A DNA stretch of 64,000 nt, taken from the NCBI GenBank assembly GCA_963666565.1, contig OY762911.1, forward strand, positions 2,022,797 through 2,086,796. The letters are read 5' to 3'. The notes under the pieces are model-generated. The model was not told the origin of the DNA and ran no database searches. It saw nothing but the letters and a program-made list of their open reading frames with translations. The position numbers were made by a program, and so were the translations under genes. This document shows positions 9,201-47,387 of the stretch, piece by piece. Each line of letters begins with the position of its first letter. Position 1 is the stretch's first letter. Source of the DNA: Thermoanaerobaculia bacterium. GTDB taxonomy: Bacteria; Acidobacteriota; Thermoanaerobaculia; Multivoradales; Multivoraceae.

Positions 9201-10256
9201 CTAGCGGACGACCGCCTCGGTCGACGCCTCGACGTTGTACGGCAGGGCGTCGTCGCCCTCGAGGCCCAGCCGCTCGTTGATCGCCAGCAGGTGGTGGTCG
9301 ACGCCGATCTCGGCGCCGGGGCGGAAACCGGGCACGGTGATGACCTGCGCCAGCACGCCGCCCAGGCCGCGGTGGATCACGCCGCGCGGCAGGTAGATCA
9401 GGTCGCCGGCGCGGACGTCGTGAACGTCGAAGAGCTGCCCGGCGAGCTCGGGGGTCATCGTCTCGGGGGACTCGATTGCCTCGGCGCGGTAGCTCGTGAG
9501 GAGTTGGTCCTCGTCGTTGCTCATCTGCACCAGGTAGAACTCGTCGAAGCCCGTGTCCACGGGGTGGTAGTGGGTGAAGGAGTCCGTGATCCGCACGCGG
9601 TGCGCGTTCAGGCCGTGGAAGGTGTAGGGCCCGTTGTCGTTGAGCCAGGTGAGCAGGATGCGACGGTAGGCGCCGGTCTCCGTGGCGCAGCCGCCGGGGA
9701 CGTCCGTGATGTTCGGATCCCAGTCGGGCCGGATCGCCGCCGGCACGTTCTCGTCCGGTGCGTCGGGAACGTCGAACACGAGCGCGGCGATCGCGGGTTC
9801 GACCGTCAGCCGTTCGCCGGGGCGGAGCACCGCGATGTCGCCTACATGGAGCTCGGTCCTGGTTGTGCCCGAGGCGGTGTGGATCTCGGCCGTCGCGGGC
9901 GCCTCCTCGACCGGCGTCTGAACGAAGACGAGCCGGCTCGACGCGTCCGCGGCGATCTCGGTGGCCGCGGCCAGGAACGTCATCGCGTAGCCGGGGTTCG
10001 CCGCCTCGAAGGCCTCCCGGACCCGCGCGAAGGCGGCTTGGCCCTCGGCGTCGTCGTCGAAGAGGTGGGCGCGGACGACTTCAGCCGGACTTCCTACGCT
10101 CTTGAGTTCGGCATCCTCCCCGCCCGGGTCGGCATCGACCTCGCTGGAGATGCAGGCACAGAGCGTGAGCGAGGCCAAGAACGTTGCTGCCGTCGCAGAC
10201 GCGAGCGGTACCGGGCACCTTCGGAATCTCACCGGCGAAACGGTACCACGCGGCAA
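9201..10256 (-). CDS. Cupin-domain lipoprotein (hypothetical)
   Basis: Lipobox-like LTLCAC in the N-terminal signal; C-terminal GDLIYLPRGVIHRG cupin-like motif; start uncertain. Confidence 0.45.
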   Translation of the reverse strand: MPRGTVSPVRFRRCPVPLASATAATFLASLTLCACISSEVDADPGGEDAELKSVGSPAEVVRAHLFDDDAEGQAAFARVREAFEAANPGYAMTFLAAATEIAADASSRLVFVQTPVEEAPATAEIHTASGTTRTELHVGDIAVLRPGERLTVEPAIAALVFDVPDAPDENVPAAIRPDWDPNITDVPGGCATETGAYRRILLTWLNDNGPYTFHGLNAHRVRITDSFTHYHPVDTGFDEFYLVQMSNDEDQLLTSYRAEAIESPETMTPELAGQLFDVHDVRAGDLIYLPRGVIHRGLGGVLAQVITVPGFRPGAEIGVDHHLLAINERLGLEGDDALPYNVEASTEAVVR

Positions 10257-10272
10257 AGGTCGGGCTCGCCCT

Positions 10273-11067
10273 TCAGCTACCCCGATCGTGTCGCTCCTGG
10301 AATCTGGCGTGGAGCTCCAAGTCGAACAGTCTGGCGGATCGGATCTCCGAGAGTGGAAGGATCACACGCATGTCCTCCAGGGACGTGCTCCGGTCTGCTC
10401 CTGGGTGGTGTCTTCGGATCTCGTTGTAGTAGCGGCCGTAGGAAGTAGTCAGCTTGAGTTCCTGCGTGTCCTTGTCGCGGTAGCCGCTGACTACTGGGAG
10501 GAGAGCTATGTCGGGCTCGGTGGCGTCCCTCTGGAAGATGCCGCTGACCGTGGCATAGCCGATGTAGGTCTTGCCGCTGTTGAGTGCGATCTCGACAGTG
10601 GTGGGGCGTTGAGCCGAGTCCTGCAGAGTCAACTCGATGAGATCGCCCCTCTCCGCCGCTGCTCTGCGGGCGCCTTCGAGATCCGTACAGCGGAGACGGC
10701 GCCGCCAGGATAGCGGCGTCTCGGTGTCCACTGCCTCGTGTTCTGCGTCTGTCTCTTTCTTCCGCCGGTTGAGTCCGTACGGAAGAGCGAACCCGCTGAG
10801 AGTTCCGATGCCGACGGCCGCCTGAACCAGGGTGAGCGGCTCCGACAAACGTAGCCAGCCCTTGAGGTCTACGCCGAGGTCCGGAACTGCATACGAGAGA
10901 GCTAGAAGCGGCAGGTATGCGATGGCCGAGAGCAGGCCCCCCAGGCAGGCCGACCGGAAGACCAGGTGGTAGCCCGACTCGCGCAGAGCGCCGTACTTCC
11001 AGCAGTTTGCCCGCGTGAGGGCCCAGTACCCGCCGAGGGCCGGCAGGAGAAGAAGCCCGAGACCCAT
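10273..11067 (-). CDS. Hypothetical membrane protein (3 predicted TM helices + cytoplasmic domain)
   Basis: ORF in a lower-GC (about 58 percent) islet; hydrophobic N-terminus; no recognisable family. Confidence 0.4.
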   Translation of the reverse strand: MGLGLLLLPALGGYWALTRANCWKYGALRESGYHLVFRSACLGGLLSAIAYLPLLALSYAVPDLGVDLKGWLRLSEPLTLVQAAVGIGTLSGFALPYGLNRRKKETDAEHEAVDTETPLSWRRRLRCTDLEGARRAAAERGDLIELTLQDSAQRPTTVEIALNSGKTYIGYATVSGIFQRDATEPDIALLPVVSGYRDKDTQELKLTTSYGRYYNEIRRHHPGADRSTSLEDMRVILPLSEIRSARLFDLELHARFQERHDRGS

Positions 11068-11085
11068 CTGGCTGAGCCGACCGGT

Positions 11086-11292
11086 CTAGCCGGAGTGTGC
11101 CGCCTTGCGATTCGGCGGTGGCGGGTCGACCTGCGCGTAGCGGTGTTCTCGCTCGATGATGGCGGTGCCGGCAGAAAAGGCGTCCGCAACTTCCGGCCTG
11201 CTCAGGAGATCGTCCATGTCGACTTGCCACGCGCCCTTGCTCGTGAAGTGGAGTCGCACCGGCCGGCTGCTCTCCTTGGTCTTGTCGGTCAT
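11086..11292 (-). CDS. Small hypothetical protein (about 68 aa)
   Basis: Short ORF starting MTDKTKESSRPV directly upstream of the membrane protein in the same islet. Confidence 0.3.
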   Translation of the reverse strand: MTDKTKESSRPVRLHFTSKGAWQVDMDDLLSRPEVADAFSAGTAIIEREHRYAQVDPPPPNRKAAHSG

Positions 11293-11488
11293 GACGCGCT
11301 CTTCCGGTTGCTGGCGGGCTCCCGACCACCCCACCTGAGACTCGACGCACAGCGTAGCAGAAGAGCCGACTTCCGTTTGCAGAGGACACGGCACCTGACA
11401 ATGCCGTCGCGAGCTCGGGCCGAACTGGCCCGCGAACGCCCCGTGGGATCCATGCAGAGCACGGTACCATGAGGGGCTCCGGCGAGAC

Positions 11489-12676
11489 GTGACGAAGAAT
11501 GAGGCCGGGGAAGAGGAGTCGACGATGGAACCCTCGACCGGTGGTGCCGAAAACGTCCAGTCCGGAAGGAGTGCGGCAGCGGTCGTGTCCGCTGGTAGGG
11601 CCCGATCCCGATGCTTGAGCGGGAGCCCGCTGGGTACGCAGCGGGTTCATGCCGCTATCCGCTGGCGATTGGCCTCCGTTTCCGGCGCCGCGTTCCTCAT
11701 GGCAACCGCGGCTGCTCATCCGGCTGCGACCGCGGACGAAGGCGGTCCGACGATCGATCTCGCGAAGCGAGCCGGCGCCCGCGTCCTGGTCACCGTCGAC
11801 GGCGAGCCCTTCACCGAGTACCGGCCCGGCGGCGAGGCCGATGGCGGCGGCCACCTGCCGTACCTGTACCCGGTCTACGGCCCCGGCGGGCAGGCGCTCA
11901 CCCGCAACTGGCCGATGGCCGAGGCGGAAGGCGAGGAGCGGGACCATCCGCATCACCGTTCCCTCTGGTTCGCTCACGGCGCCGTTGGCCCGGCCGACGG
12001 CTCGGAGCGCCACGACTTCTGGACCGGCCGCGACGGTTCGGCGATCGTCCACCGGGAGATCCTGGCCGCCGAGTCGGGCGCGGCCGGCGGCCCGGGCCTC
12101 CTGCGCACGGCCAACGTCTGGCTCGCACCCGGCGGCGCCGAGGTGCTTCGCGAGGAACGTGCGATGACCTTCCGCGCCGGCGCTTTCGACGGCGGCCAGG
12201 CCTGGCGCGCGATCGACTTCGACATCCGGCTTCGGGCCGGCGGCGCGGCCGTCGTCCTCGGCGACACGAAGGAAGGCACGATGGCCATCCGCGTCGCGCC
12301 GACTCTCCGCCACCAGGGCGAGCGCGCCGCCGGCGCCATGCTGAACAGTGAAAGCGTCGAAAGCGCCGCCGTCTGGGGCAAGCGCGCCGCGTGGGTCCAC
12401 TACAGTGGCCCGGTCGACGGCAGGCCGGTCGGCATCGCGATCTTCGACCACCCCGGGAACTTCCGCCACCCGACCTGGTGGCACGCCCGCGCCTACGGCC
12501 TGTTCGCCGCCAACCCCTTCGGCGTCCACGACTTCGAGAAGGCGAAGAAGGGCACCGGCGCCTGGACGATTCCGGCGGGCGGCGAGCTGCGGTTGCGGTA
12601 CCGGCTGCTGTTTCACGACGGCGAGGTGGCTGCGGAACAGCTCGCTGGGGAACTGGCGCGCTACGGCTCTGAGTGA
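11489..12676 (+). CDS. PmoA-family (DUF6807-like) protein, probably secreted
   Basis: HPHHRSLWFAHG and the surrounding motifs are typical of the PmoA-like family common in Planctomycetes/Verrucomicrobia-type genomes; true start uncertain (the signal-like segment begins around residue 60 of the ORF). Confidence 0.6.
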   Translation: MTKNEAGEEESTMEPSTGGAENVQSGRSAAAVVSAGRARSRCLSGSPLGTQRVHAAIRWRLASVSGAAFLMATAAAHPAATADEGGPTIDLAKRAGARVLVTVDGEPFTEYRPGGEADGGGHLPYLYPVYGPGGQALTRNWPMAEAEGEERDHPHHRSLWFAHGAVGPADGSERHDFWTGRDGSAIVHREILAAESGAAGGPGLLRTANVWLAPGGAEVLREERAMTFRAGAFDGGQAWRAIDFDIRLRAGGAAVVLGDTKEGTMAIRVAPTLRHQGERAAGAMLNSESVESAAVWGKRAAWVHYSGPVDGRPVGIAIFDHPGNFRHPTWWHARAYGLFAANPFGVHDFEKAKKGTGAWTIPAGGELRLRYRLLFHDGEVAAEQLAGELARYGSE

Positions 12677-12795
12677 CGGCGCACGGGCGATGATCGTGTG
12701 CGGACGGCGTGGTTCGTCTCGAACCCGACCGGCGAGTTGTCACAAGAACTTGTCTTTCTGGCAGAGATTCGCGCGCTTGGGCTAAGGTCCGCCAC

Positions 12796-12880
12796 AATGA
12801 TCCTCAACGCGCAGCAGCTTCGGCAGGCCGTTTCACCAGCTCGCCGAGCCGACCGAGAAGCCCTGCGACGGCCCGTCTCC
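12796..12880 (+). pseudogene. Degenerate internally deleted partial copy of the downstream dCTP-deaminase-like gene (start plus C-terminal piece)
   Basis: ATGATCCTCAACGCGCAGCAG.. and ..CAGCTCGCCGAGCCGACCGAGAAGCC match 13353-13385 and about 13760-13790; the upstream promoter-like segment is also duplicated. Confidence 0.5.
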
Positions 12881-12986
12881 CCTGCGGGATCGCCGAAGAG
12901 CAGGCGGATTATCGGTCCGGTCGTATGCTCCGTCCGGGTTCCAGAGGCGCCCGCCCGTCGACGATGGGAGTGAGGATCCGTACACG

Positions 12987-13208
12987 ATGAGCCGTACGAT
13001 TGGCGCCACGCAGTTCAGGAAACAGTGCCTCGCGATTCTCGATCAGGTGGACCGCGACGGCATCGTGATCACGAAACACGGGCACCCGGTGGCGAAGCTG
13101 ATACCAGTCAAGGGTACTTCCGGGCACTTGATCGGCTGCCTTCGGGGGAAACTGCGGCCTGCGGGCGACACGATGAGCACAGGCGTCAGGTGGGATGCTG
13201 AACACTGA
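12987..13208 (+). CDS. Phd/YefM-family type II antitoxin
   Basis: ATQFRKQCLAILDQVDRDGIVITKHGHPVAKLIP is Phd/YefM-like. Confidence 0.7.
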   Translation: MSRTIGATQFRKQCLAILDQVDRDGIVITKHGHPVAKLIPVKGTSGHLIGCLRGKLRPAGDTMSTGVRWDAEH

Positions 13209-13257
13209 CTCCGACATCCTCGTCGACGCCCTGGAAGGAGAGGCGAGACCGGCGTAG
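13195..13257 (+). pseudogene. Remnant of a VapC/PIN toxin gene (about 20 codons, then stop)
   Basis: MLNTDSDILVDALEGEARPA* overlaps the antitoxin stop in the classic TA arrangement and resembles a PIN N-terminus, but is truncated. Coordinates approximate. Confidence 0.35.
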
Positions 13258-13352
13258 CGAAGCAGCGGCTTGTTGTGGTTCGACCGAGCGGAGCGTCCGA
13301 AGATCTTGCCCGTTTCGTGGAAGTTCGGCGGCTTGCGCTAGGGTCGCGGCAG

Positions 13353-14036
13353 ATGATCCTCAACGCGCAGCAAATCCGGCGGGCTGTGGAGGGCGGTGAC
13401 ATTCGGATCGAGCCGTACGACGAGGATCAGTTGCAGGCGGCCACCTACGACCTGCGGGTCGGTGCGCAGGGCGCGACGACCAGCACGAAGAAGGTGTTGG
13501 ACCTCCGTTCAACCGGCTATCTCTCCATCGAGCCTGGCGACTTCGCGGTCGTCACCGTGCGCGAGGAGATTGCGCTGGGGCCGCAGCACGCCGGACGCTT
13601 CGGGCTGCGCTCGAAGTACGCCCGCAAGGGCCTCATTGCAACGACGGGGCCACAGATCGACCCCGGCTTCCACGGACGGCTGATCCTCGGCCTCACGAAC
13701 CTGACGCCCAAGGCCATCACGCTCTCGCACGACGACGACCTCGTGTCGGTCGAGTTTCACCAACTCGCCGAGCCGACCGAGAAGCCGTACGACGGTCCGT
13801 TCCAGGGGAAGACGAAGCTCGGTCCCGAGGAAATCGAGATGATCACCGAGAGTTCCGGGGGCATGGCCTTCTCGGAGGTGCTGACCACGCTCAGCTCGCT
13901 GAGCAAGAACGTGGCGACCCTCTCAAGGGACGTGCACGAACTTTCGGCCTCGATGAAGACGCAGCGCTGGCTCGTGCCCGTGCTCTTCGGATTCGTCGCG
14001 CTGCTGATCGCGGTGTTCGGGTTCCTCGGCGGCTGA
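13353..14036 (+). CDS. dCTP deaminase (Dcd/dUTPase-fold)-like domain fused to a C-terminal TM-anchored domain
   Basis: MILNAQQIRRAVEGGDIRIEPYDEDQLQAATYDLRVG and IDPGFHGRLILGLTNLTPKAITLSHDDDLVSVEFHQL match the Dcd fold; about 90 extra C-terminal residues ending in a hydrophobic helix WLVPVLFGFVALLIAVFGFLGG. Confidence 0.6.
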   Translation: MILNAQQIRRAVEGGDIRIEPYDEDQLQAATYDLRVGAQGATTSTKKVLDLRSTGYLSIEPGDFAVVTVREEIALGPQHAGRFGLRSKYARKGLIATTGPQIDPGFHGRLILGLTNLTPKAITLSHDDDLVSVEFHQLAEPTEKPYDGPFQGKTKLGPEEIEMITESSGGMAFSEVLTTLSSLSKNVATLSRDVHELSASMKTQRWLVPVLFGFVALLIAVFGFLGG

Positions 14037-14063
14037 CGCCAGAGCTTGGCGGCCCGGCGCTCG

Positions 14064-14621
14064 CTACCGCAAGCGCGCCGGATCGAACATCGCGTAGATG
14101 CGGGTGTCCCGCAGTTCGCCCGCGTTGTCGAGGGCATCGTTCCTGAGCGTCGCTTCCCACTCGAAGCCGAGCCGCTCCGCCACGGCCCAACTGGGCTCGT
14201 TGCGGTCGTCCATCGTGATCTGAACGCGCTTCGCGCCGAGGGTCTCGAAGGCGAGGCCGATCAGCGCGCGGGCGGACTCGGAAGCGTAGCCGTGGCCGAC
14301 GAAAGCGGAGAGCAACCAGTAGCCGATCTCGAACTTGGGCACGTCCCAGTTCGCGAACAGCGAGGAGCCGCCGACGATGCGCCCGGAGGACTTGAGCGCC
14401 AGCAGGACGTGGTACGCGGCTTCTTCTTCCAGTTCGGTCTGGGCCAACTTCAGGTAGGCCGCGAATTCGTCTTCGCCGTATGGCTTCTTTGCCCACGGCA
14501 TCCACTCGGTCAGTTCGGCGAAGGACGCCGCTATCGCGGCGATCAGTTCCTGGCCGTCCGCCGGCGTGGGCGGGCGGAGGATCAGCCGGTCGGTTTCGAG
14601 TTGGTCGGGGAAGCGGGACAT
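14064..14621 (-). CDS. GNAT family N-acetyltransferase (RimJ/RimL-like)
   Basis: ETDRLILRPPTPADGQEL; acetyl-CoA binding region; GNAT fold motifs. Confidence 0.8.
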   Translation of the reverse strand: MSRFPDQLETDRLILRPPTPADGQELIAAIAASFAELTEWMPWAKKPYGEDEFAAYLKLAQTELEEEAAYHVLLALKSSGRIVGGSSLFANWDVPKFEIGYWLLSAFVGHGYASESARALIGLAFETLGAKRVQITMDDRNEPSWAVAERLGFEWEATLRNDALDNAGELRDTRIYAMFDPARLR

Positions 14622-14647
14622 TGGAGTCGACTGCCCGTTTCGGCTTC

Positions 14648-15661
14648 TCAGTCGGCTTCGGGCGGAAGGTACTCGTCGCCTACGGTGCGCCCGCCGTTGC
14701 CGTTCGGGCGGTTCAACCGGCCCGACAGGGCATCCCGGGCAATCTGGACCGCGCTCAGGATGGTCTCCGTCGAGCGGACGCCGACGTAGTCGGAGAACGC
14801 CTTCAGGTTTCCCTCGTCAGCGGCTTCGAGTGCCCGGATGTACGCGGGTTTGCCCTCGGCGGTCACCACGGGAGGCGGCAGGTGCCGCTTCACGTAGGCC
14901 CACGCCATGAGCAGCCGCGAAACCCGTCCGTTGCCGTCCTGGAACGGGTGGGTGCGAACGAAGCGGTGATGCAGCCAGGCGGCCTCCACGTTGACTGGAT
15001 AGCTCCGTTCGCGGATGTCGTCGTCGTACAGGGCGAGGAAGCGGCGCATCTCCGGGTCCACCTGCTCCGGCGGGCAGTACTCGTGAACGAGCCCGTCGGC
15101 GCGGCGCGGGTTGTTGGGCCTCGTCTTCCACTCGCCCTTGCCGCGGAACTCGACCTGAACGCGCCGGCCCTGGAGGTCGAGGCCCGTGATTGTCTCCTGG
15201 TGCCGCGTCAGCAGGGCGTGCCAACTTTTCATCATGTACACCGACAGGGGGCGGCCGCTGGCGACATCCTCGAACATCATGTCGTAGGCGGCCTCCTGGT
15301 CCCGCAGCAGGCCCCGCAGAGTGCGGTCCTCGATCCCCTCGAGAGTGTGCGCCCCCACCGCGCCGGCGAAGCCCTCCGCGATGAACTGCTCGGTGACGCC
15401 CCGCCGCAGCGTGTACAGCCCCTCGATCTGGCCGGTCTCCAGGGCGAAGGCGCGCACCCGCTCCCGCAGCCAGCCGTTCAGGAAGCGCGACTCGGGGGAG
15501 CCGTCCTTGATCCCGCCCAGGCATTCGTTCCACTCGGCCTCGAGGTCGGCGTAGCCGGGCATCGTCCAGCCTTCCGCGCCGTCCGGCATGCCGGTCAGTG
15601 GCTTCCACTGCTCGGGGGCCTGCGCGGCCACTGCCAAACTCCCGTTGCGTCTTCGGTCCAT
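14648..15661 (-). CDS. Fic/DOC family protein (AMPylation-type fold)
   Basis: Canonical Fic motif HPFQDGNGRVSRLL. Confidence 0.85.
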   Translation of the reverse strand: MDRRRNGSLAVAAQAPEQWKPLTGMPDGAEGWTMPGYADLEAEWNECLGGIKDGSPESRFLNGWLRERVRAFALETGQIEGLYTLRRGVTEQFIAEGFAGAVGAHTLEGIEDRTLRGLLRDQEAAYDMMFEDVASGRPLSVYMMKSWHALLTRHQETITGLDLQGRRVQVEFRGKGEWKTRPNNPRRADGLVHEYCPPEQVDPEMRRFLALYDDDIRERSYPVNVEAAWLHHRFVRTHPFQDGNGRVSRLLMAWAYVKRHLPPPVVTAEGKPAYIRALEAADEGNLKAFSDYVGVRSTETILSAVQIARDALSGRLNRPNGNGGRTVGDEYLPPEAD

Positions 15662-15744
15662 CCGGCCGCGATGCTACTACTGGGCCGGCGGTCTCGGCCG
15701 TCCATCGTGACCTGAACGCGCTTGGCGCCGCGCGGCGCAAGCTC

Positions 15745-16512
15745 CTAGTCGAACGCGGGTCTGACCGGCTTCTTCGTCTCCGGCGCCCAGATTCGGATCT
15801 GGCTGAAGCGGCCGGTGTCGTCGAACGACCCGAAGCCGACGCGGCCCCAGCCGAGCGGGTCGCGGTCGGCCGAGACGGTCGGCTGCTTCTCGTCGTCGAA
15901 GTAGACCCGTAGCGAGCCGTCCTGGCGTTCGACGCGCACGCGCTTCCAGCCGCGGCCCCAGTCGACGCCTTCGTCCGGGATCGCGCCCATCGGCGTCCGG
16001 TCGGCGTTGTCGACCAGGAAGATGTTGTGGGCACGGTCGTCCGGCTCGGTGGCGAGGTGGGCGTAGTAGTAGCGGTTCGGTCCCTCGAAGCCGAAGAAGA
16101 GGCTGAGGTCGCGGTGACCGTACTCGCGGCCGGTCTGCCAGGCCTCGGCTTCGAGGACGAAGTCGGCGAGCAGGAGATCGTCGATCAGGGCGATGTTGAG
16201 CGGCGAGCGGTGTTTCGGCTTGTACTTGCTGCCGCCCTTGAGGTCGAGGTAGCCGCGCCAGTCTCCCGCGCCGTACGCCCACGCTCGCCGGTCGCTGAAC
16301 GTGAAGTCGTCGAGCGCGGAGGCCTCGGTGAAGTCCTGGGAGTAGACGAGTTCGTAGCCTTCCGGGACGTCGGACTGGGCGTGGAGGCCGCCGGCGGTGG
16401 CGACGGCAGTCAATGCGGCCAGACTCAGCCAAACCGGCGCTTTGCGCCGGATGCCGGCGAGGGCGCCGGCGCACCCGGTGGGGCGCATCGCGAGACTGCG
16501 AACCGGGCCCAT
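15745..16512 (-). CDS. Secreted DUF1080-like (3-keto-disaccharide hydrolase family) protein
   Basis: Signal peptide; domain often found next to Gfo/Idh/MocA oxidoreductases; start overlaps the upstream stop by 1 nt (alternative Met at 16488). Confidence 0.5.
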   Translation of the reverse strand: MGPVRSLAMRPTGCAGALAGIRRKAPVWLSLAALTAVATAGGLHAQSDVPEGYELVYSQDFTEASALDDFTFSDRRAWAYGAGDWRGYLDLKGGSKYKPKHRSPLNIALIDDLLLADFVLEAEAWQTGREYGHRDLSLFFGFEGPNRYYYAHLATEPDDRAHNIFLVDNADRTPMGAIPDEGVDWGRGWKRVRVERQDGSLRVYFDDEKQPTVSADRDPLGWGRVGFGSFDDTGRFSQIRIWAPETKKPVRPAFD

Positions 16513-36154: not shown

Positions 36155-39100
36155 ATGACGACGCCCGAACAGGATCCGCGGATCCGCCTCGCCGAAGACG
36201 CCAGCCCGCTCCGGTTCGTGACGGCGGCGTCGCTCTTCGACGGGCACGACGCGGCGATCCACATCATGCGGCGCATGATCCAGGACCGCGGGGCCGAGGT
36301 GATCCACCTGGGCCACAACCGCGGCGTCGACGAGATCGTCCGCGCCGCGGTGCAGGAGGACGCCGACGCCATCGCGGTCAGTTCCTACCAGGGAGGCCAC
36401 ATCGAGTTCTTCCGCTACATGATCGACCGGCTGGCGGAGGAGGGCAGGGAAGACGTTCTCGTGTTCGGCGGCGGCGGCGGCACGATCACGCCGGAGGAGA
36501 TCGCGGAACTTGAGGCCTACGGCGTCGAGCGGATCTACCACCCCGACGACGGCCTGAAGATGGGTCTGCCGGCGATGATCGACGACGTCGTCGAGCGGGC
36601 GCACGCGAAGCGCCGGCCGGCGGCCGCCGAGCCGCGGTTCCGGGCGCGGATGGCGGCGGATCCCGGCGGCGACATCGAGCTCTCGGGGCTGTTGTCGGCG
36701 ATCGAGCGAGGCGCGCTGGACGAAGCCGAACTGCGCCGGCTACGCAAGGAGTGGCGCCTCGCCGGCGCCGGCGTGCCGGTCGTGGGCCTCACCGGCACCG
36801 GCGGCGCGGGCAAGAGCAGCGTCGCCGACGAACTGCTGAATCGCTTCCTCGATTCCATGCCGGAGGCCGCCTCTGAGATGCGGATCGCCCTGCTGGCGGT
36901 CGACCCGACCCGGCGGCGCACTGGCGGCGCGTTGCTCGGCGACCGCATCCGCATGAACAGCCTGCGCAGCGACCGCGCCTTCATGCGCTCGATGGCGACC
37001 CGCCGGCAGCACCGCGCCACCAGCGAGGTGCTGGGCGACGCGATCGCCCTGCTCAAGGCGTCCGGGTTCTCCATGGTCCTCGTGGAGACCGCCGGCATCG
37101 GCCAGAGCGACAGCGAGATCGTCGACCTGGTGGACCTCTCGATCTACGTGATGACCTCGGACTACGGCGCGGCCAGCCAGCTCGAGAAGATCGACATGCT
37201 CGACTTCGCCGACGTGATCGTGCTGAACAAGTTCGACCGGCGCGGCGGCCGGGACGCGCTGCGCGACATCCGCAAGCAGTGGCGTCGCAACCGCCTGGCC
37301 TTCCAGACCGCGGACGAGGACGTGCCGGTCTACCCGACGATCGCGAGCCAGTTCCAGGATCCCGGCGTCAACTGGATGTTCTGGAACGTCTGCCGGCTGC
37401 TGCAGGAGCGGCTCGACCTGGACGAGGAGGCGTGGACGCCGGAGATCGCACTGGACGAGCGCGAACCGAGCGCGGCGGCGCTGATCCCGGACAGCCGCAG
37501 CCGCTACCTCGCCGAGATCGCCGAGGCGAGCCGGGCCGCCGAGGCCGAGGCGGAGCGGCGCGCCGCCGCGGCGTCCAGGGCGCACGCCTGCTACCGGGCG
37601 CTGGCGGAACTCGACGACCCGGAGCTTCCCGAACCGCTCGCCGCGTACGCTGAGTCGGCGCTGGAGACGGCCCGCGGCGCCGGCGCCGAGTCGCCCGCTG
37701 GCGCAGGCGGGGAGACCGGCACGGGCGCGGCCGCCCGCGCCGCCACTCCCGACGTCGCCCGCGCCGCCGCGCCCTCCGGCACGGCCCCCGCCGCCGCTCT
37801 CGGCACGACCGCCGACGAGACCCTCTTGCGCCTGCGCCGGAGCTACCAGCAGGCGCTGGCGGAAGTGGGCGCCGGCGCGGCGGCACTCCTCCGCGCCTGG
37901 CCGGCCCGCGCCGCGGCCGCGCGTGCGGACCGGTACAGCTACCCGGTCCGCGGCCGCGAGGTCACCGGCGACAACTACGTCACGACGCTCAGCCACCTGC
38001 GGATGCCGAAGCTGGCCCTGCCCGAGTACTCGGACTGGGGCGACCTGCTGCGCTTCCTGCTGAAGCACAACCTGCCCGGCGCTTGGCCCTACACCGCCGG
38101 CGTTTACCCCTACCGTCGCCGCGGCGAGGAGCCGACGCGGATGTTCGCCGGCGAGGGGATCGCGGAGCGCACGAACCGACGGTTCCACTTCGTCTCGCGC
38201 GGCCAGCCCGCGAACCGCCTGTCCACCGCCTTCGACTCGGTCACCCTCTACGGCTCGGACCCCGGCGAGCGGCCCGACATCTGGGGCAAGGTCGGCAACT
38301 CGGGCGTCTCCATCGCCACGGTCGACGACATGAAGCGGCTTTACTCGGGCTTCGACCTGTGCGACCCCGCGACCTCCGTGTCGATGACGATCAACGGCCC
38401 GGCGCCGACCATCCTCGCCTTCTTCATGAACGCCGCCATCGACCAGCAGGTCGAACTGCACCTGCGCGAGACCGGCGGCTTGGAGCGGGCGCGGGCCGAG
38501 ATCGACCGGCTGTCAGGCGGCGACGTGCCGGTCTACCGCGGCGAACTGCCGGAGGAGAACGACGGCCTGGGACTGGCACTGCTTGGCATCTCGGGCGACC
38601 GGGTCGTCGAGCGCGAGGTCTACGAGCGCATCCGCGCCGACGCCCTGAGCCGGGTTCGGGGCACGGTGCAGGCCGACATCCTGAAGGAGGACCAAGCCCA
38701 GAACACATGCATCTTCTCGACCGAGTTCTCGTTGCGGACGATGGGCGACGTCCAGCAGTTCTTCATCGACGAGAACGTCCGCAACTACTACAGCGCCTCG
38801 GTCAGCGGCTACCACATCGCCGAAGCCGGCGCGAACCCGATCACGCAACTCGCGTTCACGCTCGCCAACGGCTTCACGATCGTCGAGTACTACCTCGCGC
38901 GCGGCATGGCGATCGACGACTTCGCTCCCAACCTGTCGTTCTTCTTCTCGAACGGGATGGACCCGGAGTACGCCGTGATCGGGCGGGTCGCCCGCCGCAT
39001 CTGGGCGCGCGCGATGCGCGAGCGCTACGGCGCCTCGGCGCGCAGCCAGATGCTCAAGTACCACATCCAGACCTCCGGCCGTTCGCTGCACGCGCAGGAG

Positions 39101-39760
39101 ATCCAGTTCAACGACATCCGCACCACGCTGCAGGCGCTCTACGGAATCCTCGACCGCTGCAACTCCCTGCACACGAACGCCTTCGACGAGGCGATCACGA
39201 CCCCGACCGAGCAGTCCGTCCGGCGCGCGCTGGCGATCCAGTTGATCATCAACCGCGAGTTCGGCCTCAACCGGAGCGAGAACCCCTGGCAGGGCTCGTT
39301 CGCCCTCGACCAGTTGACCGACGCCGTGGAGGAGGCCGTCTACCTGGAGTTCGAGCGCCTGTCCGAGCGGGGCGGCGTGCTGGCGGCGATGGACACGATG
39401 TACCAGCGCTCGAAGATCCAGGACGAGAGCATGGAGTACGAGGCGAAGAAGCACGACGGCAGCCTGCCGGTGGTCGGCGTCAACACCTTCCTCGCCGAGG
39501 GGCAGGAGCACGCCGAGACGGTCGAGGCGGAACTCATCCGCTCGACCGACGAGGAGAAGCGGCAGCAGATCGAGAGTCTGGCCTCCTTCCACCGCCGGCA
39601 CGCCGGCCACTCCGAGGCGTGTCTCGAACGCCTACAGGACGTCGCGCGGCGGCGGGGCAACGTCTTCGAGGAACTGATGGAGACGGTCAAGCACTGCTCG
39701 CTCGGCCAGATCTCGGACGCGCTCTACCGCGTCGGCGGCGAGTACCGGCGCAGCATGTAG
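36155..39760 (+). CDS. icmF: Fused isobutyryl-CoA mutase IcmF (B12-binding domain + MeaB-like GTPase + mutase catalytic domain)
   Basis: N-terminal B12-binding (DGHD), central G-protein (GLTGTGGAGKSS), C-terminal methylmalonyl-CoA-mutase-like barrel. Confidence 0.85.
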   Translation: MTTPEQDPRIRLAEDASPLRFVTAASLFDGHDAAIHIMRRMIQDRGAEVIHLGHNRGVDEIVRAAVQEDADAIAVSSYQGGHIEFFRYMIDRLAEEGREDVLVFGGGGGTITPEEIAELEAYGVERIYHPDDGLKMGLPAMIDDVVERAHAKRRPAAAEPRFRARMAADPGGDIELSGLLSAIERGALDEAELRRLRKEWRLAGAGVPVVGLTGTGGAGKSSVADELLNRFLDSMPEAASEMRIALLAVDPTRRRTGGALLGDRIRMNSLRSDRAFMRSMATRRQHRATSEVLGDAIALLKASGFSMVLVETAGIGQSDSEIVDLVDLSIYVMTSDYGAASQLEKIDMLDFADVIVLNKFDRRGGRDALRDIRKQWRRNRLAFQTADEDVPVYPTIASQFQDPGVNWMFWNVCRLLQERLDLDEEAWTPEIALDEREPSAAALIPDSRSRYLAEIAEASRAAEAEAERRAAAASRAHACYRALAELDDPELPEPLAAYAESALETARGAGAESPAGAGGETGTGAAARAATPDVARAAAPSGTAPAAALGTTADETLLRLRRSYQQALAEVGAGAAALLRAWPARAAAARADRYSYPVRGREVTGDNYVTTLSHLRMPKLALPEYSDWGDLLRFLLKHNLPGAWPYTAGVYPYRRRGEEPTRMFAGEGIAERTNRRFHFVSRGQPANRLSTAFDSVTLYGSDPGERPDIWGKVGNSGVSIATVDDMKRLYSGFDLCDPATSVSMTINGPAPTILAFFMNAAIDQQVELHLRETGGLERARAEIDRLSGGDVPVYRGELPEENDGLGLALLGISGDRVVEREVYERIRADALSRVRGTVQADILKEDQAQNTCIFSTEFSLRTMGDVQQFFIDENVRNYYSASVSGYHIAEAGANPITQLAFTLANGFTIVEYYLARGMAIDDFAPNLSFFFSNGMDPEYAVIGRVARRIWARAMRERYGASARSQMLKYHIQTSGRSLHAQEIQFNDIRTTLQALYGILDRCNSLHTNAFDEAITTPTEQSVRRALAIQLIINREFGLNRSENPWQGSFALDQLTDAVEEAVYLEFERLSERGGVLAAMDTMYQRSKIQDESMEYEAKKHDGSLPVVGVNTFLAEGQEHAETVEAELIRSTDEEKRQQIESLASFHRRHAGHSEACLERLQDVARRRGNVFEELMETVKHCSLGQISDALYRVGGEYRRSM

Positions 39761-39890
39761 CGCCGCCGACCGCCGCGCATGCCGGGTCCGTTGACGGCGA
39801 AGAACTGCGGCATATCTGCGCTCGCCAATGCTCAGGCCGAGCTACCAGTCATGCGCCAGGTTCCAGCCAGCTCCAGCGAGTCGTAGTCCT

Positions 39891-40877
39891 TCATCGCCTG
39901 GCCCGAAGCGGCCTGAAGAACAACTCCAGTTCGTTGACCTTCTCCTTGCGGGGCAACCTGAGTGTTCCACTGTCCAGGATACTCCCGGTGACCTCGATCG
40001 CGTAGACGCCGAACACATCGTCGTCTTCGACGTCGATGTCAACCACACTGATCAAGAGCGTGTCGCCTTCGTAGACCTTCACGAGCGTGCCGGACCGACG
40101 GAAGTTGTACCGGCCTGACTTCCTGGATCGCTCGGGTGTTCGCCCCCGGACAAGCCGCTCGACGCAGGCCAGTTCTAGCCTGTACCGTCCTGAGGCCGCG
40201 TTCAACATGGATTGCTGAATCGGTATCTCGTACCTTCGAGCCCTCTCGGCATCGGACAGCGGTGGGCTTGGCTTGCGCTTGCTGGCCTCATCCTTCGCTT
40301 CGAGCTCGGTGAGTTCCGTTTCGCGTAACGACACTTCGGCGGAGCTGAGTTGCAGCCTGCCTTCCGAGTACGCCTGCGTTTCGGACTTCAGTTGGTTCAT
40401 CCGCGTGCGCTCGCTCTCGGTTAGTGGCAGCTTCGGCTTTGACAGCTCGTCCTTCTGGACGAGTGCCGACAGCTCGGCCTGGAGGCGCTCCACCCTTGCG
40501 GCGATCTCCGCCAGACCGGTGCCGAGGTCGTCGACCAGCCCTTCCATCCTCAGGTCCTGGCGTTCCACGCGCACCTGGACGTCGGCCCCACTCAGGAAGT
40601 CCATCGCGCTTTGGCCTGAAACGCTGAGAGCGCCAACGCCCAGGCCATGGGCGCGGCTGGTTGGCAGGAGGTCGGAAGCCGACTCGCAAGAAGGCGGATC
40701 GAGCGGCACCGGCTCTTGTTGCAGAGACCAGGCTGGACCGCCAGCGAGAACTCCAAGACTGACCGCGATGAGGAACCGCGCCGGATCGACCGACCGCCAA
40801 GCTGCGACTGCCGGAGCGCCCCGGTGGCGGCTCCGCACCCGCTGTCGCGCACTCTCTTTCCCCATTCTGGCGGTCAC
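39891..40877 (-). CDS. Hypothetical coiled-coil protein with PL(S/T)(D/E)xExxR repeats and a conserved C-terminal VYEGD...FRP domain (paralog of 43199-44629)
   Basis: Lower-GC region; clear similarity to the downstream paralog in the coiled-coil, repeat and C-terminal roughly 65 aa regions. Confidence 0.5.
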   Translation of the reverse strand: MTARMGKESARQRVRSRHRGAPAVAAWRSVDPARFLIAVSLGVLAGGPAWSLQQEPVPLDPPSCESASDLLPTSRAHGLGVGALSVSGQSAMDFLSGADVQVRVERQDLRMEGLVDDLGTGLAEIAARVERLQAELSALVQKDELSKPKLPLTESERTRMNQLKSETQAYSEGRLQLSSAEVSLRETELTELEAKDEASKRKPSPPLSDAERARRYEIPIQQSMLNAASGRYRLELACVERLVRGRTPERSRKSGRYNFRRSGTLVKVYEGDTLLISVVDIDVEDDDVFGVYAIEVTGSILDSGTLRLPRKEKVNELELFFRPLRARR

Positions 40878-41035
40878 GACTCTTCTGTCTCCTCGGCCTT
40901 GAGCGGCGCCGAGATGCGGAGAACAGCGGCGCCGGTGTCGTCCGTTGTCTCAACCTCGCATCTGGTGGGCGTTGCATCGGCTGAGGCAAGGCTGATTGTC
41001 GATCCCATGGAGAGATCACTCTAACCTGAGAACGG

Positions 41036-41067
41036 GCTTGTAGTAGCGAGCAAGAACGTGTAGCTGG
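41036..41067 (-). promoter_or_regulatory. Conserved upstream motif CTTGTAGT-N14-ACGTGTAGC (copy 1)
   Basis: About 80 percent identical to 49099-49130; both lie about 150-200 bp upstream of minus-strand gene starts in the accessory cluster; coordinates approximate. Confidence 0.35.
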
Positions 41068-41158
41068 CCGATCGGCCTGGGTCGCTCAAGGGTCTCGTCC
41101 GGGATCGTGACCTTCCCCCGGCGAAGCTAGGGGAACGCGTGCGCGGGGAACGGGTCGC

Positions 41159-41503
41159 CTACTGGCACGGAAACGCCGTGATGTCCGACTTCGTGGTGGC
41201 GGTCGCGCCCTGCGGGTTGCCGTGCGTCCAGCGGCTGCCGTCGGGTCCCGTAATCCACAGGTTGAAGTCCAGGGTCGTCACCGGCGCCACGAACGCCCAG
41301 CGGTGGCCGTTGACTTGGCAACCGTCGAGCACCTTGACGAGAACCTCGGGGTTGTTGCGGCCGAAGAACCACAGAATGCCGGCCTCGCTGGACCAGGCTT
41401 CGGCCTTGACCGGGCCCGACTCGCCCTCTTGCGTGACGTAGCACATGCTGACCTCGAAGCCGCCGTCGAAGCGGAGGGCCACGGTCGTGGGCGTGCAGGT
41501 GCC
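41159..41503 (-). repeat. Dispersed about 340 bp repeat copy 1 (encodes the shared four-Cys domain)
   Basis: About 80 percent nucleotide identity to 44893-45231 and 48054-48392. Confidence 0.7.
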
Positions 41504-43060: not shown

Positions 43061-43198
43061 GGCCCAGACCCTCCTTCGTTGGTGCCCGGCCCCGGCAAGG
43101 GGCTTCATCGTCGGGATCGCGCCGCTCTTCAGCCGACCCGATGCCGACTCTTCCAACGATGGTAGTGGACTTGGCCTCAATCGGAGACTCGGCGGCCC

Positions 43199-47340: not shown

Positions 47341-47387
47341 AGAGCCTCTGTCGGGTCGTCGTCATGCGGCGGCTCCCTCGCGGCCCT

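What the first reader, a model, noticed from the sequence alone, without database searches (positions are those of the whole stretch)
12698..15661. TA/defence-like islet: Phd antitoxin with decayed PIN toxin, dCTP-deaminase-like/TM fusion, GNAT and Fic genes
A Phd/YefM antitoxin gene is followed by only about 20 codons of a VapC-like ORF, so the toxin appears lost. It is followed by a gene whose N-terminal 160 aa have the dCTP deaminase/dUTPase fold (IDPGFHG...L.N motif) fused to a C-terminal segment ending in a TM helix. Nucleotide-depleting dCTP deaminases are established anti-phage effectors, but those characterised carry kinase-like N-domains, not a C-terminal membrane anchor, so this architecture is unusual. 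Fic (HPFQDGNGRVSRLL) and GNAT genes lie convergently next to it.
Basis: partly seen in the sequence, partly recalled or inferred. Interest (0 to 1): 0.65.

Follow-up and report, generated by a model that had tools for sequence, protein, structure and literature searches.

The report
Membrane-anchored dUTPase-like gene in decaying islet

Summary
The window carries phd (12987-13208), a 20-codon vapC stump (13195-13257), a 227-aa Dcd-like protein with a C-terminal TM helix (13353-14036), a GNAT (14064-14621, minus strand) and a Fic gene (14648-15661, minus strand).

Synteny with four related 'Ca. Multivorans' genomes shows a variable islet between conserved core genes. The relatives carry an intact phd-vapC pair and a 1591-aa PDC-S37/Hhe-like helicase-nuclease that the window has lost.

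- **Not a deaminase.** The Dcd catalytic Glu (M. tuberculosis E129) is an invariant Gly across the family.
- **Closest relatives are dUTPases.** The best sequence and structure matches are the archaeal monofunctional dUTPases P45 and T. pacificus (34% identity, TM 0.92).
- **Different fold from defensive deaminases.** Those enzymes are zinc-dependent cytosine deaminases.
- **Not a one-off architecture.** At least 766 homologues, 55-80% identical across more than 10 phyla, share the head, heptad coiled-coil stalk and C-terminal TM anchor.

The gene is solitary and patchily distributed. It also occurs at accessory positions in temperate phages and next to IS and TA genes. PADLOC does not recognise it, and a control scan showed no defence-gene gradient around it.

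Best reading: a tail-anchored, probably trimeric pyrimidine-dNTP pyrophosphatase carried as mobile cargo. A defence role remains a hypothesis.

The parts
12645..15768 (.). Variable islet between conserved core genes (DUF6807 gene on the left, a LamG/DUF1080-like gene and an oxidoreductase on the right)
   Evidence: In blastn against Ca. Multivorans relatives L039, L050, L053 and L001, the flanks 11726-12644 and 15769 onwards are syntenic at 84-93% identity, while the content between them differs in every genome. GC is 0.644 for 13001-14000 against about 0.70 in the flanks.
12726..12880 (+). Frameshifted remnant (pseudogene) of a second DCD-TM copy: upstream region plus 12 codons, fused to a mid-gene piece
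   Evidence: 12726-12816 matches 13281-13372 at 78% identity, and 12797-12831 matches 13353-13387 at 86%. These join at a GT microhomology to 12830-12876, which matches 13754-13800 at 91%. Together they imply an internal 368-nt deletion (tblastn). The remnant is absent from L050.
12987..13208 (+). phd/yefM-family antitoxin gene (73 aa), now an orphan
   Evidence: PF02604 E 2.9e-9, above the cutoff; TIGR01552 above its cutoff. It is 86% identical at nucleotide level to the phd of L001, which precedes an intact PIN gene.
13195..13257 (+). vapC (PIN toxin) stump of 20 codons; homology to the intact gene ends at 13259
   Evidence: Read directly from the sequence. 15 of 20 residues are identical to the N-terminus of the 122-aa PIN protein of L001. 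The blastn breakpoint is at window 13259 / L001 387.
13353..14036 (+). DCD-TM gene: a 227-aa tail-anchored Dcd-type dUTPase homologue, intact
   Evidence: PF22769 E 9e-25. 766 homologues. All invariant family residues are present. AF2 model mean pLDDT 83.9, head above 95.
13353..13820 (+). Head domain (aa 1-156): dUTPase/Dcd beta-barrel with conserved nucleotide-binding motifs (RSKYARKG, QIDPGFHG, PYDGPFQG), and Gly113 where the deaminase Glu would be
   Evidence: Foldseek: 9ln0, P. furiosus dUTPase P45, E 1.4e-17, TM(target) 0.92, rmsd 1.4 A, 34% identity; 8y1w, T. pacificus dUTPase with dUMP, TM 0.93. phmmer alignments to 9ln0, 8y1w and the M. tuberculosis enzyme 2qxx. Invariant columns.
13863..13967 (+). 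Stalk (aa 171-205): conserved helix GMAxSEVLTTLxSLSxNV followed by a heptad coiled coil of family-variable length
   Evidence: 9 of 10 a/d positions are hydrophobic in one register. Helix 172-226 in the model, with low pLDDT at 167-191 as a monomer. C-terminal segment lengths in the family are 62-85 aa, mostly 66 or 73, with longer stalks in the 256- and 282-aa members P0132 and P0131.
13971..14027 (+). C-terminal transmembrane anchor (aa 207-225), preceded by K/R residues
   Evidence: The 19-residue Kyte-Doolittle mean is 2.77. All 27 aligned family members have a C-terminal window above 1.6, and no other segment in any of them reaches it.
14064..14621 (-). GNAT (RimJ/RimL-type) acetyltransferase, a window-specific insertion
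   Evidence: PF13302 E 2.8e-28. Absent from L001, L050 and L053, where the DCD-like gene and Fic lie about 80-150 nt apart.
14648..15661 (-). Class II Fic-domain protein (337 aa), probably an AMP-transferase, SoFic-like in layout
   Evidence: PF02661 E 8.6e-18. PADLOC PDC-S04 E 2.4e-18 and SoFic E 1.4e-16. The motifs HPFQDGNGRVSR and the inhibitory TGQIEG were read from the translation. Syntenic in L001, L050 and L053.

Best explanation
The gene at 13353-14036 encodes a tail-anchored, probably trimeric homologue of the Dcd-type (archaeal-like) dUTPases. It is not a dCTP deaminase.

**Proposed mechanism**
- The cytoplasmic head binds a pyrimidine deoxynucleoside triphosphate, most likely dUTP or a close non-canonical analogue. 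It cleaves the alpha-beta phosphoanhydride bond to give dNMP and PPi, using the conserved Asp of the IDPG motif, the Ser and Arg of the RSKxxR motif and the C-terminal PYxGPxQG lid.
- It cannot deaminate, because the general-acid Glu is an invariant Gly.
- A conserved helix and a three-stranded heptad coiled coil of variable length hold the head at the inner face of the cytoplasmic membrane, through a single C-terminal TM helix per subunit.

**Biology.** The gene is a self-contained mobile accessory gene with its own upstream region and no conserved partner. It travels on temperate phages and IS/TA-rich islets. In this genome it sits in a fast-turning-over islet that has already lost a vapC toxin and a helicase-nuclease and holds a dead second copy of the same gene. 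I infer that it serves in phage-host or mobile-element conflict by removing dUTP or a modified pyrimidine dNTP.

**How firm each step is**
- Shown: fold, loss of the Glu, conserved binding residues, TM and heptads, family size and distribution, islet variability.
- Inferred: hydrolase activity, trimer, topology.
- Hypothesised: a defence role.
For: **Fold and active site**
- Foldseek best hits are dUTPase P45 (9ln0) and T. pacificus dUTPase with dUMP (8y1w): E about 1e-17, TM(target) 0.92-0.93, rmsd 1.3-1.4 A.
- phmmer ranks the same two first, at E 5.5e-21 and 2.8e-18, ahead of every Dcd.
- Aligned to M. tuberculosis DCD-DUT, E129 falls on G113, S102 on S87, R106 on R91 and D119 on D103.
- G113, S87, R86, R91, D103, Y146, G148, P149 and Q151 are invariant in 27 diverse members.

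**Anchor**
- TM KD 2.77; 27 of 27 members have it; heptad register 9 of 10.
- Long C-terminal helix in the model.
- A profile search with the C-terminal module finds almost only this architecture or fragments of it; two hits (P0127, P0166) look like chimeric calls.
- Relatives at 25-32% identity on plasmids and phages keep the head, coil and TM layout.

**Mobility and accessory status**
- 48 loci in 185,579 species genomes across Acidobacteriota, Alpha- and Gammaproteobacteria, Verrucomicrobiota, Planctomycetota, Nitrospirota, Gemmatimonadota, Bacteroidota and others, at 48-81% identity.
- No conserved neighbour.
- IS1 or IS1595 transposases are nearby in at least 9 loci.
- TA modules are adjacent in several loci.
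- Copies at 60-65% identity sit in tailed temperate phages, next to the integrase, the endolysin or a module boundary.
- Specific defence neighbours occur in some loci: SspBCD/Dnd, EcoRII R-M, PDC-S37 helicase, BrxC, RmrA, TIR.
- The islet varies between strains.
Against: - No biochemical data exist for any member.
- Conserved binding residues cannot separate catalysis from mere ligand binding.
- PADLOC has no model that hits it.
- My control scan found PADLOC-model hits at about the same rate 6.5-10 kb away (about 7%) as in the two genes on either side (about 8%). Enrichment near defence genes is therefore not demonstrated.
- Many loci have plain housekeeping neighbours such as purD, tRNA synthetases and recA.
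- 55-80% identity across phyla is unusually conservative for an immune gene.
- In all four close relatives of this genome the gene is frameshifted, truncated or reduced to 222 bp, so it is dispensable here.
- There is no obvious reason why a dUTPase should need a membrane anchor.
Confidence: 0.4

Rival explanations
1. Sensor-effector abortive-infection protein. The dUTPase-like head is a nucleotide sensor, for example for a phage-made or phage-depleted pyrimidine dNTP. Ligand-dependent closing of the C-terminal lid is passed through the conserved helix and coiled coil to the TM helices, which cluster and permeabilise the membrane.
For: - The lid motif PYxGPxQG runs straight into the most conserved part of the C-terminal half (invariant M171, A172, S174, E175, S184), which is more than a passive tether would need.
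- Most stalk-length variants seen (66 versus 73 aa, and several longer forms) differ by multiples of 7 or by 11 residues, which would keep helical register.
- The distant plasmid subfamily keeps the head, coil and TM but has lost the Ser and the lid motif, which looks like a binder rather than an enzyme.
- It is a solitary gene, as many single-protein Abi effectors are.
Against: - The TM segment is poorly conserved apart from a W/P at its start, as expected of a plain anchor.
- One TM helix per subunit gives only a three-helix bundle.
- The catalytic Asp103 and the phosphate-binding Ser and Arg are invariant, which points to chemistry rather than sensing alone.
- There is no evidence of toxicity or of a partner immunity gene.
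Confidence: 0.2
2. An ordinary nucleotide-sanitising dUTPase of mobile elements with no immune role. Temperate phages often carry dUTPases to keep uracil out of their DNA. This would be a membrane-localised version, and the chromosomal copies would be prophage or IS leftovers.
For: - The closest characterised relatives are housekeeping dUTPases.
- Copies occur in bona fide tailed phages.
- Viral Dcd/dUTPases are common.
- Sequence conservation is very high.
- There is no defence-gene gradient around the gene.
- The gene decays in the Ca. Multivorans relatives.
Against: - In the phage contigs the gene lies next to the integrase, the endolysin or a structural-module boundary, not within replication or nucleotide-metabolism modules.
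- Most chromosomal loci show no prophage genes nearby.
- The invariant coiled-coil and TM anchor has no precedent among sanitising dUTPases.
- The archaeal-type dUTPase equivalog model is far from met, at 21 bits against a cutoff of 130.
Confidence: 0.25
3. A new toxin-antitoxin pairing. After vapC was lost, the orphan Phd antitoxin now controls or neutralises the downstream DCD-TM protein, which would act as a nucleotide-depleting or membrane toxin.
For: phd lies 145 nt upstream on the same strand, and the vapC stump ends just before the DCD-TM upstream region.
Against: - In L001 and L050 phd-vapC is intact and separated from the DCD-like gene by a helicase block of about 5.7 kb. The present adjacency is a deletion artefact.
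- No phd-like or other conserved partner is found next to the gene in 51 loci.
- The DCD-TM upstream region is duplicated together with the gene remnant, so it behaves as the gene's own.
Confidence: 0.03
4. A bona fide dCTP deaminase (Dcd paralogue) that depletes dCTP.
For: TIGR02274 'dCTP deaminase' scores 101.3 bits, above its 92.8 cutoff. Sources name homologues 'dCTP deaminase'.
Against: - The catalytic Glu (E129 in M. tuberculosis; E138 in E. coli and E145 in M. jannaschii, as named in the PDB variant titles) is an invariant Gly.
- The nearest structures are monofunctional dUTPases that also lack this Glu.
- Defensive dCTP deaminases belong to a different fold.
Confidence: 0.04

Closest known systems
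Archaeal Dcd-type monofunctional dUTPases (P. furiosus P45, PDB 9LN0/9LN3; Thermococcus pacificus dUTPase, PDB 8Y1W)
   Same: Same fold and size of catalytic domain: 34% and 30% identity, TM(target) 0.92-0.93, rmsd 1.3-1.4 A. The RS.xAR.G, (I/V)DPG(F/W).G and PY.G.(Y/F)QG motifs are shared. Both lack the deaminase Glu: Met or Leu in the archaeal enzymes, Gly here.
   Different: The archaeal enzymes are soluble proteins of about 155 aa that end right after the lid. This family adds about 70 residues: a conserved helix, a coiled coil and a TM anchor. It is bacterial or phage-borne and patchily distributed. The archaeal dUTPase equivalog NF002598 scores only 21 bits against a cutoff of 130.
Bacterial dCTP deaminase Dcd and bifunctional DCD-DUT (E. 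coli 1XS1, M. tuberculosis 2QXX/2QLP, M. jannaschii 1OGH)
   Same: Homologous beta-barrel, with the Ser, Arg and Asp of the active site conserved. The NCBIfam Dcd model is passed.
   Different: The catalytic Glu is replaced by an invariant Gly. Identity is 18-25%. The Dcd insertions are missing (153 query residues align to 169 in M. tuberculosis). The C-terminal membrane anchor is added.
Defensive dCTP deaminase of Tal et al. (bioRxiv 10.1101/2021.04.26.441389) and AvcD
   Same: Only the name, and the general idea of acting on the pyrimidine dNTP pool. Both are single genes that can lie near defence genes.
   Different: Those proteins have a zinc-dependent cytosine deaminase domain (zinc-binding cysteines C370 and C401) plus an N-terminal kinase domain. 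This protein has neither, and no PADLOC model hits it.
Unvalidated 'dUTPase / MazG-C kinase / aGPT-Pplase' predicted defence systems of DefensePredictor (PMC13092281)
   Same: Relatives at 25-28% identity with the same head, coiled coil and TM layout sit on rhizobial plasmids. They lie among HTH and ImmA/IrrE genes, a C1 peptidase, MazG, a nucleotide kinase, thymidylate-synthase-like genes, UDG and a 'DNA base hypermodification protein' gene. This matches the gene content described for that prediction.
   Different: The window's subfamily is solitary and has none of these partners. The plasmid subfamily has lost the Ser and the lid motif. I could not confirm that the DefensePredictor dUTPase is the same protein family. 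None of these predicted systems has been tested.
Type II TA phd/yefM-vapC, and Fic (class II, SoFic-like) single-gene defence candidates
   Same: phd and the vapC stump are orthologous to an intact pair in L001. The Fic protein has the canonical HxFx(D/E)GNGRxxR motif and an N-terminal (S/T)xxxE(G/N) inhibitory motif, and it hits the PADLOC SoFic and PDC-S04 models.
   Different: The toxin is gone, so the TA module is dead. The Fic protein scores 18.9 bits against the 550-bit SoFic equivalog cutoff, so it is not a SoFic orthologue.

Membership tests
dCTP deaminase (Dcd, EC 3.5.4.13) | dUTPase-like beta-barrel fold with a Dcd family profile match | tested here: met
   PF22769 E 9e-25. TIGR02274 101.3 bits against a cutoff of 92.8. 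Foldseek hits to E. coli, M. tuberculosis and M. jannaschii Dcd at E 1e-11 to 1e-14.
dCTP deaminase (Dcd, EC 3.5.4.13) | Catalytic glutamate (E. coli E138, M. tuberculosis E129, M. jannaschii E145) in the 'LE(L/F)xN' strand | tested here: not met
   M. tuberculosis 'itlElsn' aligns to 'lilGltn'. Gly113 is invariant in 27 family members.
dCTP deaminase (Dcd, EC 3.5.4.13) | Active-site Ser and Arg (E. coli S111 and R115; M. tuberculosis S102 and R106) | tested here: met
   S87 and R91 align to them and are invariant.
Dcd-type monofunctional dUTPase (archaeal P45 type) | Closest sequence and structure relationship, with no deaminase Glu | tested here: met
   9ln0 and 8y1w are the top hits by phmmer (E 5.5e-21 and 2.8e-18) and by Foldseek (TM(target) 0.92-0.93). 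Both have 'LTLMLYN' or 'LTLMLFN' at the Glu position.
Dcd-type monofunctional dUTPase (archaeal P45 type) | Curated equivalog score (NF002598) | tested here: not met
   21 bits against a cutoff of 130. It is a relative, not an orthologue.
Dcd-type monofunctional dUTPase (archaeal P45 type) | dUTP to dUMP + PPi activity and uracil specificity | not testable with these tools
   Only conservation of D103, S87, R86, R91, Y146 and Q151 can be shown.
Defensive dCTP deaminase (Tal et al. / AvcD) | Zinc-dependent cytidine/cytosine deaminase domain plus N-terminal kinase-like domain | tested here: not met
   No dCMP_cyt_deam or kinase Pfam hit. No PADLOC hit. The family definition is taken from the preprint.
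Known or candidate anti-phage system (PADLOC v2) | Match to a defence-protein model | tested here: not met
   0 families at E<=0.01 for the DCD-TM protein.
Defence-island gene (guilt by association) | Enrichment of defence genes in the neighbourhood relative to a control | tested here: inconclusive
   The two genes on either side: roughly 15 of 182 ORFs hit PADLOC models, some very specifically (SspC, SspD, BrxC, PDC-S37, RmrA). Control ORFs 6.5-10 kb away: roughly 8-10 of 126 hit. No genome-wide background is available.
Tail-anchored membrane protein | A single C-terminal TM helix, no N-terminal signal, positive charges on the cytoplasmic side | tested here: met
   KD 2.77 at residues 207-225. 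No other segment exceeds 1.6. K/R residues precede the TM. 27 of 27 members share this. Actual membrane insertion was not tested.
Phd/YefM-VapC type II TA module | Antitoxin with the Phd_YefM domain | tested here: met
   PF02604 37 bits against 29.8; TIGR01552 30.6 bits against 20.8.
Phd/YefM-VapC type II TA module | Intact cognate PIN toxin immediately downstream | tested here: not met
   Only 20 codons remain, against 122 aa in L001.
Fic AMP-transferase, class II (SoFic-like) | HxFx(D/E)GNGRxxR active-site motif and N-terminal (S/T)xxxE(G/N) inhibitory motif | tested here: met
   HPFQDGNGRVSR and TGQIEG are present in the translation. PF02661 E 8.6e-18.
Fic AMP-transferase, class II (SoFic-like) | SoFic orthology (NF046030 equivalog) | tested here: not met
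   18.9 bits against a cutoff of 550. The PADLOC SoFic model hits at only E 1.4e-16 over part of its length.

The most novel reading that the evidence does not exclude
DCD-TM is a new single-gene anti-phage or superinfection-exclusion system spread by temperate phages and islets. It would be a membrane-tethered trimeric pyrimidine-dNTP pyrophosphatase, or a dNTP sensor coupled to a membrane effector. It would block phages that depend on dUTP or hypermodified pyrimidine dNTPs, and would represent a nucleotide-pool defence built on the dUTPase fold rather than on the CDA or HD folds.
Probability: 0.3. Interest if true: 0.7.

Novelty: new variant of a known kind. Interest (0 to 1): 0.5.

Why it matters
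Hundreds of genes across at least ten bacterial phyla and several temperate phages are auto-annotated as 'dCTP deaminase'. They cannot deaminate, and they carry an invariant coiled-coil and membrane anchor that no characterised dUTPase or Dcd has. If the family proves to be an immune or exclusion factor, it would add a third enzyme fold to nucleotide-pool-based immunity. It would also tie in with the untested 'dUTPase / MazG / hypermodification' clusters on plasmids. If it proves to be only a membrane-localised sanitising dUTPase, it still corrects a systematic mis-annotation and raises the question of why dUTP hydrolysis would be placed at the membrane. The islet itself is a clear small example of rapid gain, loss and decay of TA and defence cargo between fixed core genes.

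Tried and rejected
1. **Conserved partner gene.** All-against-all clustering of ORFs within 5 kb in 51 loci found only shadow ORFs, IS1/IS1595 transposases and lineage-specific synteny. I rejected the idea of a multi-gene system.
2. **Phd as a new antitoxin for DCD-TM.** Rejected on synteny.
3. **RosmerTA-type pairing.** RmrA-like HTH-M78 genes occur next to the gene in about 3 loci. In L054 the RmrA-like gene has a candidate upstream partner, a 193-aa ORF ending 3 nt before it, so DCD-TM is more likely a neighbour than its toxin.
4. **C-terminal module as a portable effector.** A profile search of 1.84 billion proteins found it essentially only in this architecture or in fragments.
5. **Defence-island enrichment.** The PADLOC hit rate near the gene was not higher than in a control 6.5-10 kb away. 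I therefore do not claim enrichment.
6. **Promoter and terminator scan of the islet.** Nothing found. Upstream regions across the family share no common element.
7. **Integron- or cassette-like flanking repeats.** Only weak chance-level inverted repeats.
8. **Literature.** Searches for the architecture, for the Pfam id and for PDB ids 8Y1W and 9LN0 found no description of this family. Burroughs et al. 2015 is not held.
9. **Foldseek libraries.** AFDB50 was unavailable. BFVD gave only generic viral Dcd/dUTPases.

Full report
**1. What is in the window**

The window has about 70% GC, and GC dips to 0.644 over 13001-14000. ORF listing, profile scans and direct reading give the following genes:
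- a DUF6807 gene at 11489-12676 (+);
- phd at 12987-13208 (+), above the PF02604 and TIGR01552 cutoffs;
- a 20-codon ORF at 13195-13257 that overlaps the phd stop;
- a 227-aa Dcd-like gene at 13353-14036 (+), PF22769 E 9e-25;
- a RimJ/L-type GNAT at 14064-14621 (-);
- a Fic gene at 14648-15661 (-).

The Fic protein carries HPFQDGNGRVSR and, nearer the N-terminus, the class II inhibitory motif TGQIEG.

- 12726-12831 repeats the 5' region and first 12 codons of the gene at 78-86% identity.
- At a GT microhomology this joins 12830-12876, which repeats codons 135-149 at 91% identity.
- Together these imply a 368-nt, frame-breaking internal deletion.

**2. The islet is real and in decay**

The closest relatives are 'Candidatus Multivorans' MAGs. 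In blastn against L001, L039, L050 and L053, the flanks (window 7.5-10.1 kb, 11726-12644, and 15769 onwards) are collinear at 84-93% identity. The content between them differs in every genome.
- L001 has phd, an intact 122-aa PIN gene, a 1591-aa DUF4011/AAA_11/AAA_12/MTES_1575/DUF3320 protein, a 105-aa ORF, the DCD-like gene and Fic. The large protein matches PADLOC PDC-S37 end to end and Hhe at E 1e-208.
- In the window, homology to L001 stops at 13259, two bases after the stop codon of the vapC stump, and resumes at 13330. About 5.7 kb, holding most of vapC and the helicase-nuclease, is missing.
- The stump matches 15 of the first 20 PIN residues.
- The GNAT gene is present only in the window.
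- The DUF6338-like gene block at 10086-11726 is another window-specific insertion.

The DCD-like gene itself is decaying in all four relatives. It is frameshifted with S87W and Y146C in L001, lacks its first 34 codons in L039, and is reduced to 222 bp in L050 and L053. Only the window copy is full length with every family-invariant residue.

**3. The Dcd-like protein is not a deaminase**

phmmer against PDB ranks two 155-aa 'dCTP deaminase' chains first, 9ln0 and 8y1w. The entry titles identify them as the thermostable dUTPase P45 and the Thermococcus pacificus dUTPase with dUMP.

An AlphaFold2 model built on 27 homologues has mean pLDDT 83.9, with the head above 95. It superposes on these two structures with TM(target) 0.92-0.93 and rmsd 1.3-1.4 A. 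Bacterial Dcd and DCD-DUT enzymes follow at 18-25% identity.

In the alignment to the M. tuberculosis enzyme, the numbering is confirmed by A115, the residue named in the title of entry 4a6a. There, E129 faces Gly113, S102 faces S87, R106 faces R91 and D119 faces D103. Gly113 is invariant in the family. So are S87, R86, R91, D103 and the lid residues Y146, G148, P149 and Q151.

The deaminase general acid is therefore absent throughout the family, while everything needed to bind a pyrimidine dNTP and attack its alpha-phosphate is kept. The NCBIfam Dcd equivalog is nevertheless passed (101.3 against 92.8 bits). That explains the 'dCTP deaminase' labels in public sources.

Those enzymes combine a zinc-dependent cytosine deaminase domain with a kinase domain, which is an unrelated fold. 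PADLOC has no hit for the protein.

**4. The C-terminal half is an invariant part of the family**

Residues 171-205 show a clean heptad pattern, with 9 of 10 a/d positions hydrophobic. Residues 207-225 form a strongly hydrophobic helix (KD 2.77) preceded by K/R residues. All 27 aligned members have this feature.

The first part of this half, GMAxSEVLTTLxSLSxNV, is as conserved as the enzyme core. The coiled coil behind it varies in length: C-terminal segments are mostly 66 or 73 aa within a range of 62-85, and stalks are much longer in P0131 and P0132. The TM sequence is free to vary apart from a W..P at its start.

A profile of this module searched against 1.84 billion representatives finds almost only this architecture or fragments of it; two hits (P0127, P0166) look like chimeric calls. 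Much more distant relatives, at 25-32% identity on rhizobial plasmids and in IMG/VR phages, keep the same three-part layout.

Because dUTPases and Dcd enzymes are trimers (established knowledge), the simplest picture is a trimeric head on a three-stranded stalk, tail-anchored at the inner face of the membrane.

**5. Distribution and context**

There are 766 homologues at E<=1e-3. The best 120 are 180-273 aa long, 59-94% identical to the window protein, and nearly all cover at least 92% of it. A pattern scan of 185,579 species genomes found 48 loci in Acidobacteriota, Alpha- and Gammaproteobacteria, Verrucomicrobiota, Planctomycetota, Nitrospirota, Gemmatimonadota, Bacteroidota, Marinimicrobia, Chloroflexota and others. 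The gene is rare, patchy and highly conserved, which points to horizontal transfer rather than housekeeping.

No neighbour is conserved across the family, and upstream regions are unrelated between loci.

Neighbours are a mixture:
- IS1 or IS1595 transposases in at least 9 loci;
- TA modules: ParE, PIN_10-DUF433, Panacea, and phd-vapC here;
- Ssp/Dnd phosphorothioation genes;
- EcoRII R-M;
- BrxC, RmrA and TIR hits;
- prophage or GTA tail genes;
- but also purD, tRNA synthetases and recA.

Five IMG/VR contigs carry copies at 60-65% identity. Four of them (L056-L059) were scanned against PHROGs and carry tailed-phage genes such as terminase, portal, integrase and Ant. In three of these the gene lies next to the integrase (L057), upstream of the endolysin (L058), or at a module boundary (L059). 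These are accessory ('moron') positions, not nucleotide-metabolism modules.

I tested whether defence genes are enriched next to the gene.
- About 8% of the two ORFs on either side hit PADLOC models.
- A control set 6.5-10 kb away hit at about 7%.
- Some of the near hits are very specific, but no gradient was shown and no genome background was available.

I therefore treat defence association as suggestive only.

**6. Mechanism and rivals**

Best-supported reading, about 0.4 for the whole chain:
- The protein is a tail-anchored trimeric pyrimidine-dNTP pyrophosphatase, most likely a dUTPase.
- It is carried as stand-alone mobile cargo.
- It is used in phage or mobile-element conflict.

Confidence in the sub-claims:

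| Sub-claim | Confidence |
|---|---|
| dUTPase/Dcd fold, not a deaminase | about 0.9 |
| Tail-anchored coiled-coil oligomer | about 0.75 |
| Catalytically active hydrolase | about 0.55 |
| Immune or exclusion role | about 0.3 |

Rivals:
- **Nucleotide sensor coupled to a membrane effector (0.2).** Favoured by the very conserved lid-to-helix junction and by the plasmid subfamily that has lost its catalytic Ser and lid.
- **Ordinary sanitising dUTPase of mobile elements (0.25).** Favoured by high conservation, the phage copies, the lack of a defence gradient and local decay.
- **New Phd-controlled toxin (0.03).** Refuted by synteny.
- **True dCTP deaminase (0.04).** Refuted by the missing Glu.

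**7. Comparison with known systems and novelty**

The head is a relative of archaeal Dcd-type dUTPases, but not an orthologue (NF002598: 21 against 130 bits). I found no description of a dUTPase or Dcd with a coiled-coil and TM tail in the searchable literature.

The nearest published pointer is an unvalidated DefensePredictor prediction of systems containing a dUTPase with a MazG-C kinase and an aGPT-Pplase. The gene content described there matches the rhizobial plasmid clusters around the distant subfamily. I could not confirm that the predicted dUTPase is the same protein family, and the window's subfamily has none of those partners.

I class the finding as a new variant of a known kind, with moderate interest (0.5). 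The architecture and distribution are striking and testable. The immune role is not established, and the local islet is largely a graveyard of decayed cargo.

Noticed in passing
window 12726-12880: Frameshifted remnant of a second DCD-TM copy upstream of phd. The upstream region and 12 codons are joined by a GT microhomology to codons 135-149, implying a 368-nt internal deletion. The about 70-nt upstream region is duplicated together with the gene, as if gene and leader move as a unit.
   Followed up: yes
L001 749-5554 (absent from window between 13259 and 13330): Relatives carry a 1591-aa DUF4011/AAA_11/AAA_12/MTES_1575/DUF3320 helicase-nuclease here. It matches PADLOC candidate PDC-S37 end to end and Hhe at E 1e-208. 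The window has lost it together with most of vapC.
   Followed up: partly
window 10086-11726: Window-specific insertion relative to L039, L050 and L053, with low GC (0.646). It holds a 264-aa membrane protein with a borderline DUF6338 match (26.3 bits against a cutoff of 26.5) and an upstream 102-aa ORF. Function unknown.
   Followed up: no
L001 6115-6819; L039 10001-10563; L050 8461-8682; L053 10069-10290: The DCD-TM gene is frameshifted with S87W and Y146C in L001, N-terminally truncated in L039, and reduced to 222 bp in L050 and L053. All four close relatives carry a damaged copy, while the window copy is intact.
   Followed up: yes
L062 (CP140872.1), L063 (NZ_CP133481.1), L064 (NZ_CP024308.1): Relatives at 25-28% identity on alphaproteobacterial plasmids share the head, coiled coil and TM layout. 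They sit in clusters with HTH and ImmA/IrrE genes, a C1 peptidase, MazG, a nucleotide kinase, thymidylate-synthase-like genes, UDG and a 'DNA base hypermodification protein'. The plasmid proteins lack the Ser and the lid motif.
   Followed up: partly
L068-L070 (JGI/Logan contigs), genes just upstream of the DCD-TM gene: A Panacea-domain (SocA/PanA) antitoxin gene and a 147-aa ORF lie immediately upstream, 17 nt from the DCD-TM gene and on the same strand. A DUF695/RraB gene lies 44 nt downstream. This may be an operon in that lineage only.
   Followed up: no
family alignment A2, columns for residues 171-190: The linker helix GMAxSEVLTTLxSLSxNV, with invariant M171, A172, S174, E175 and S184, is as conserved as the active site. 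AlphaFold models it at pLDDT below 50 as a monomer. Its role (trimer interface, partner binding or signal relay) is unexplained.
   Followed up: no
window 39001-48000: A long stretch with lower GC (0.64-0.68 against 0.70-0.76 elsewhere). It may be another acquired region. Not examined.
   Followed up: no
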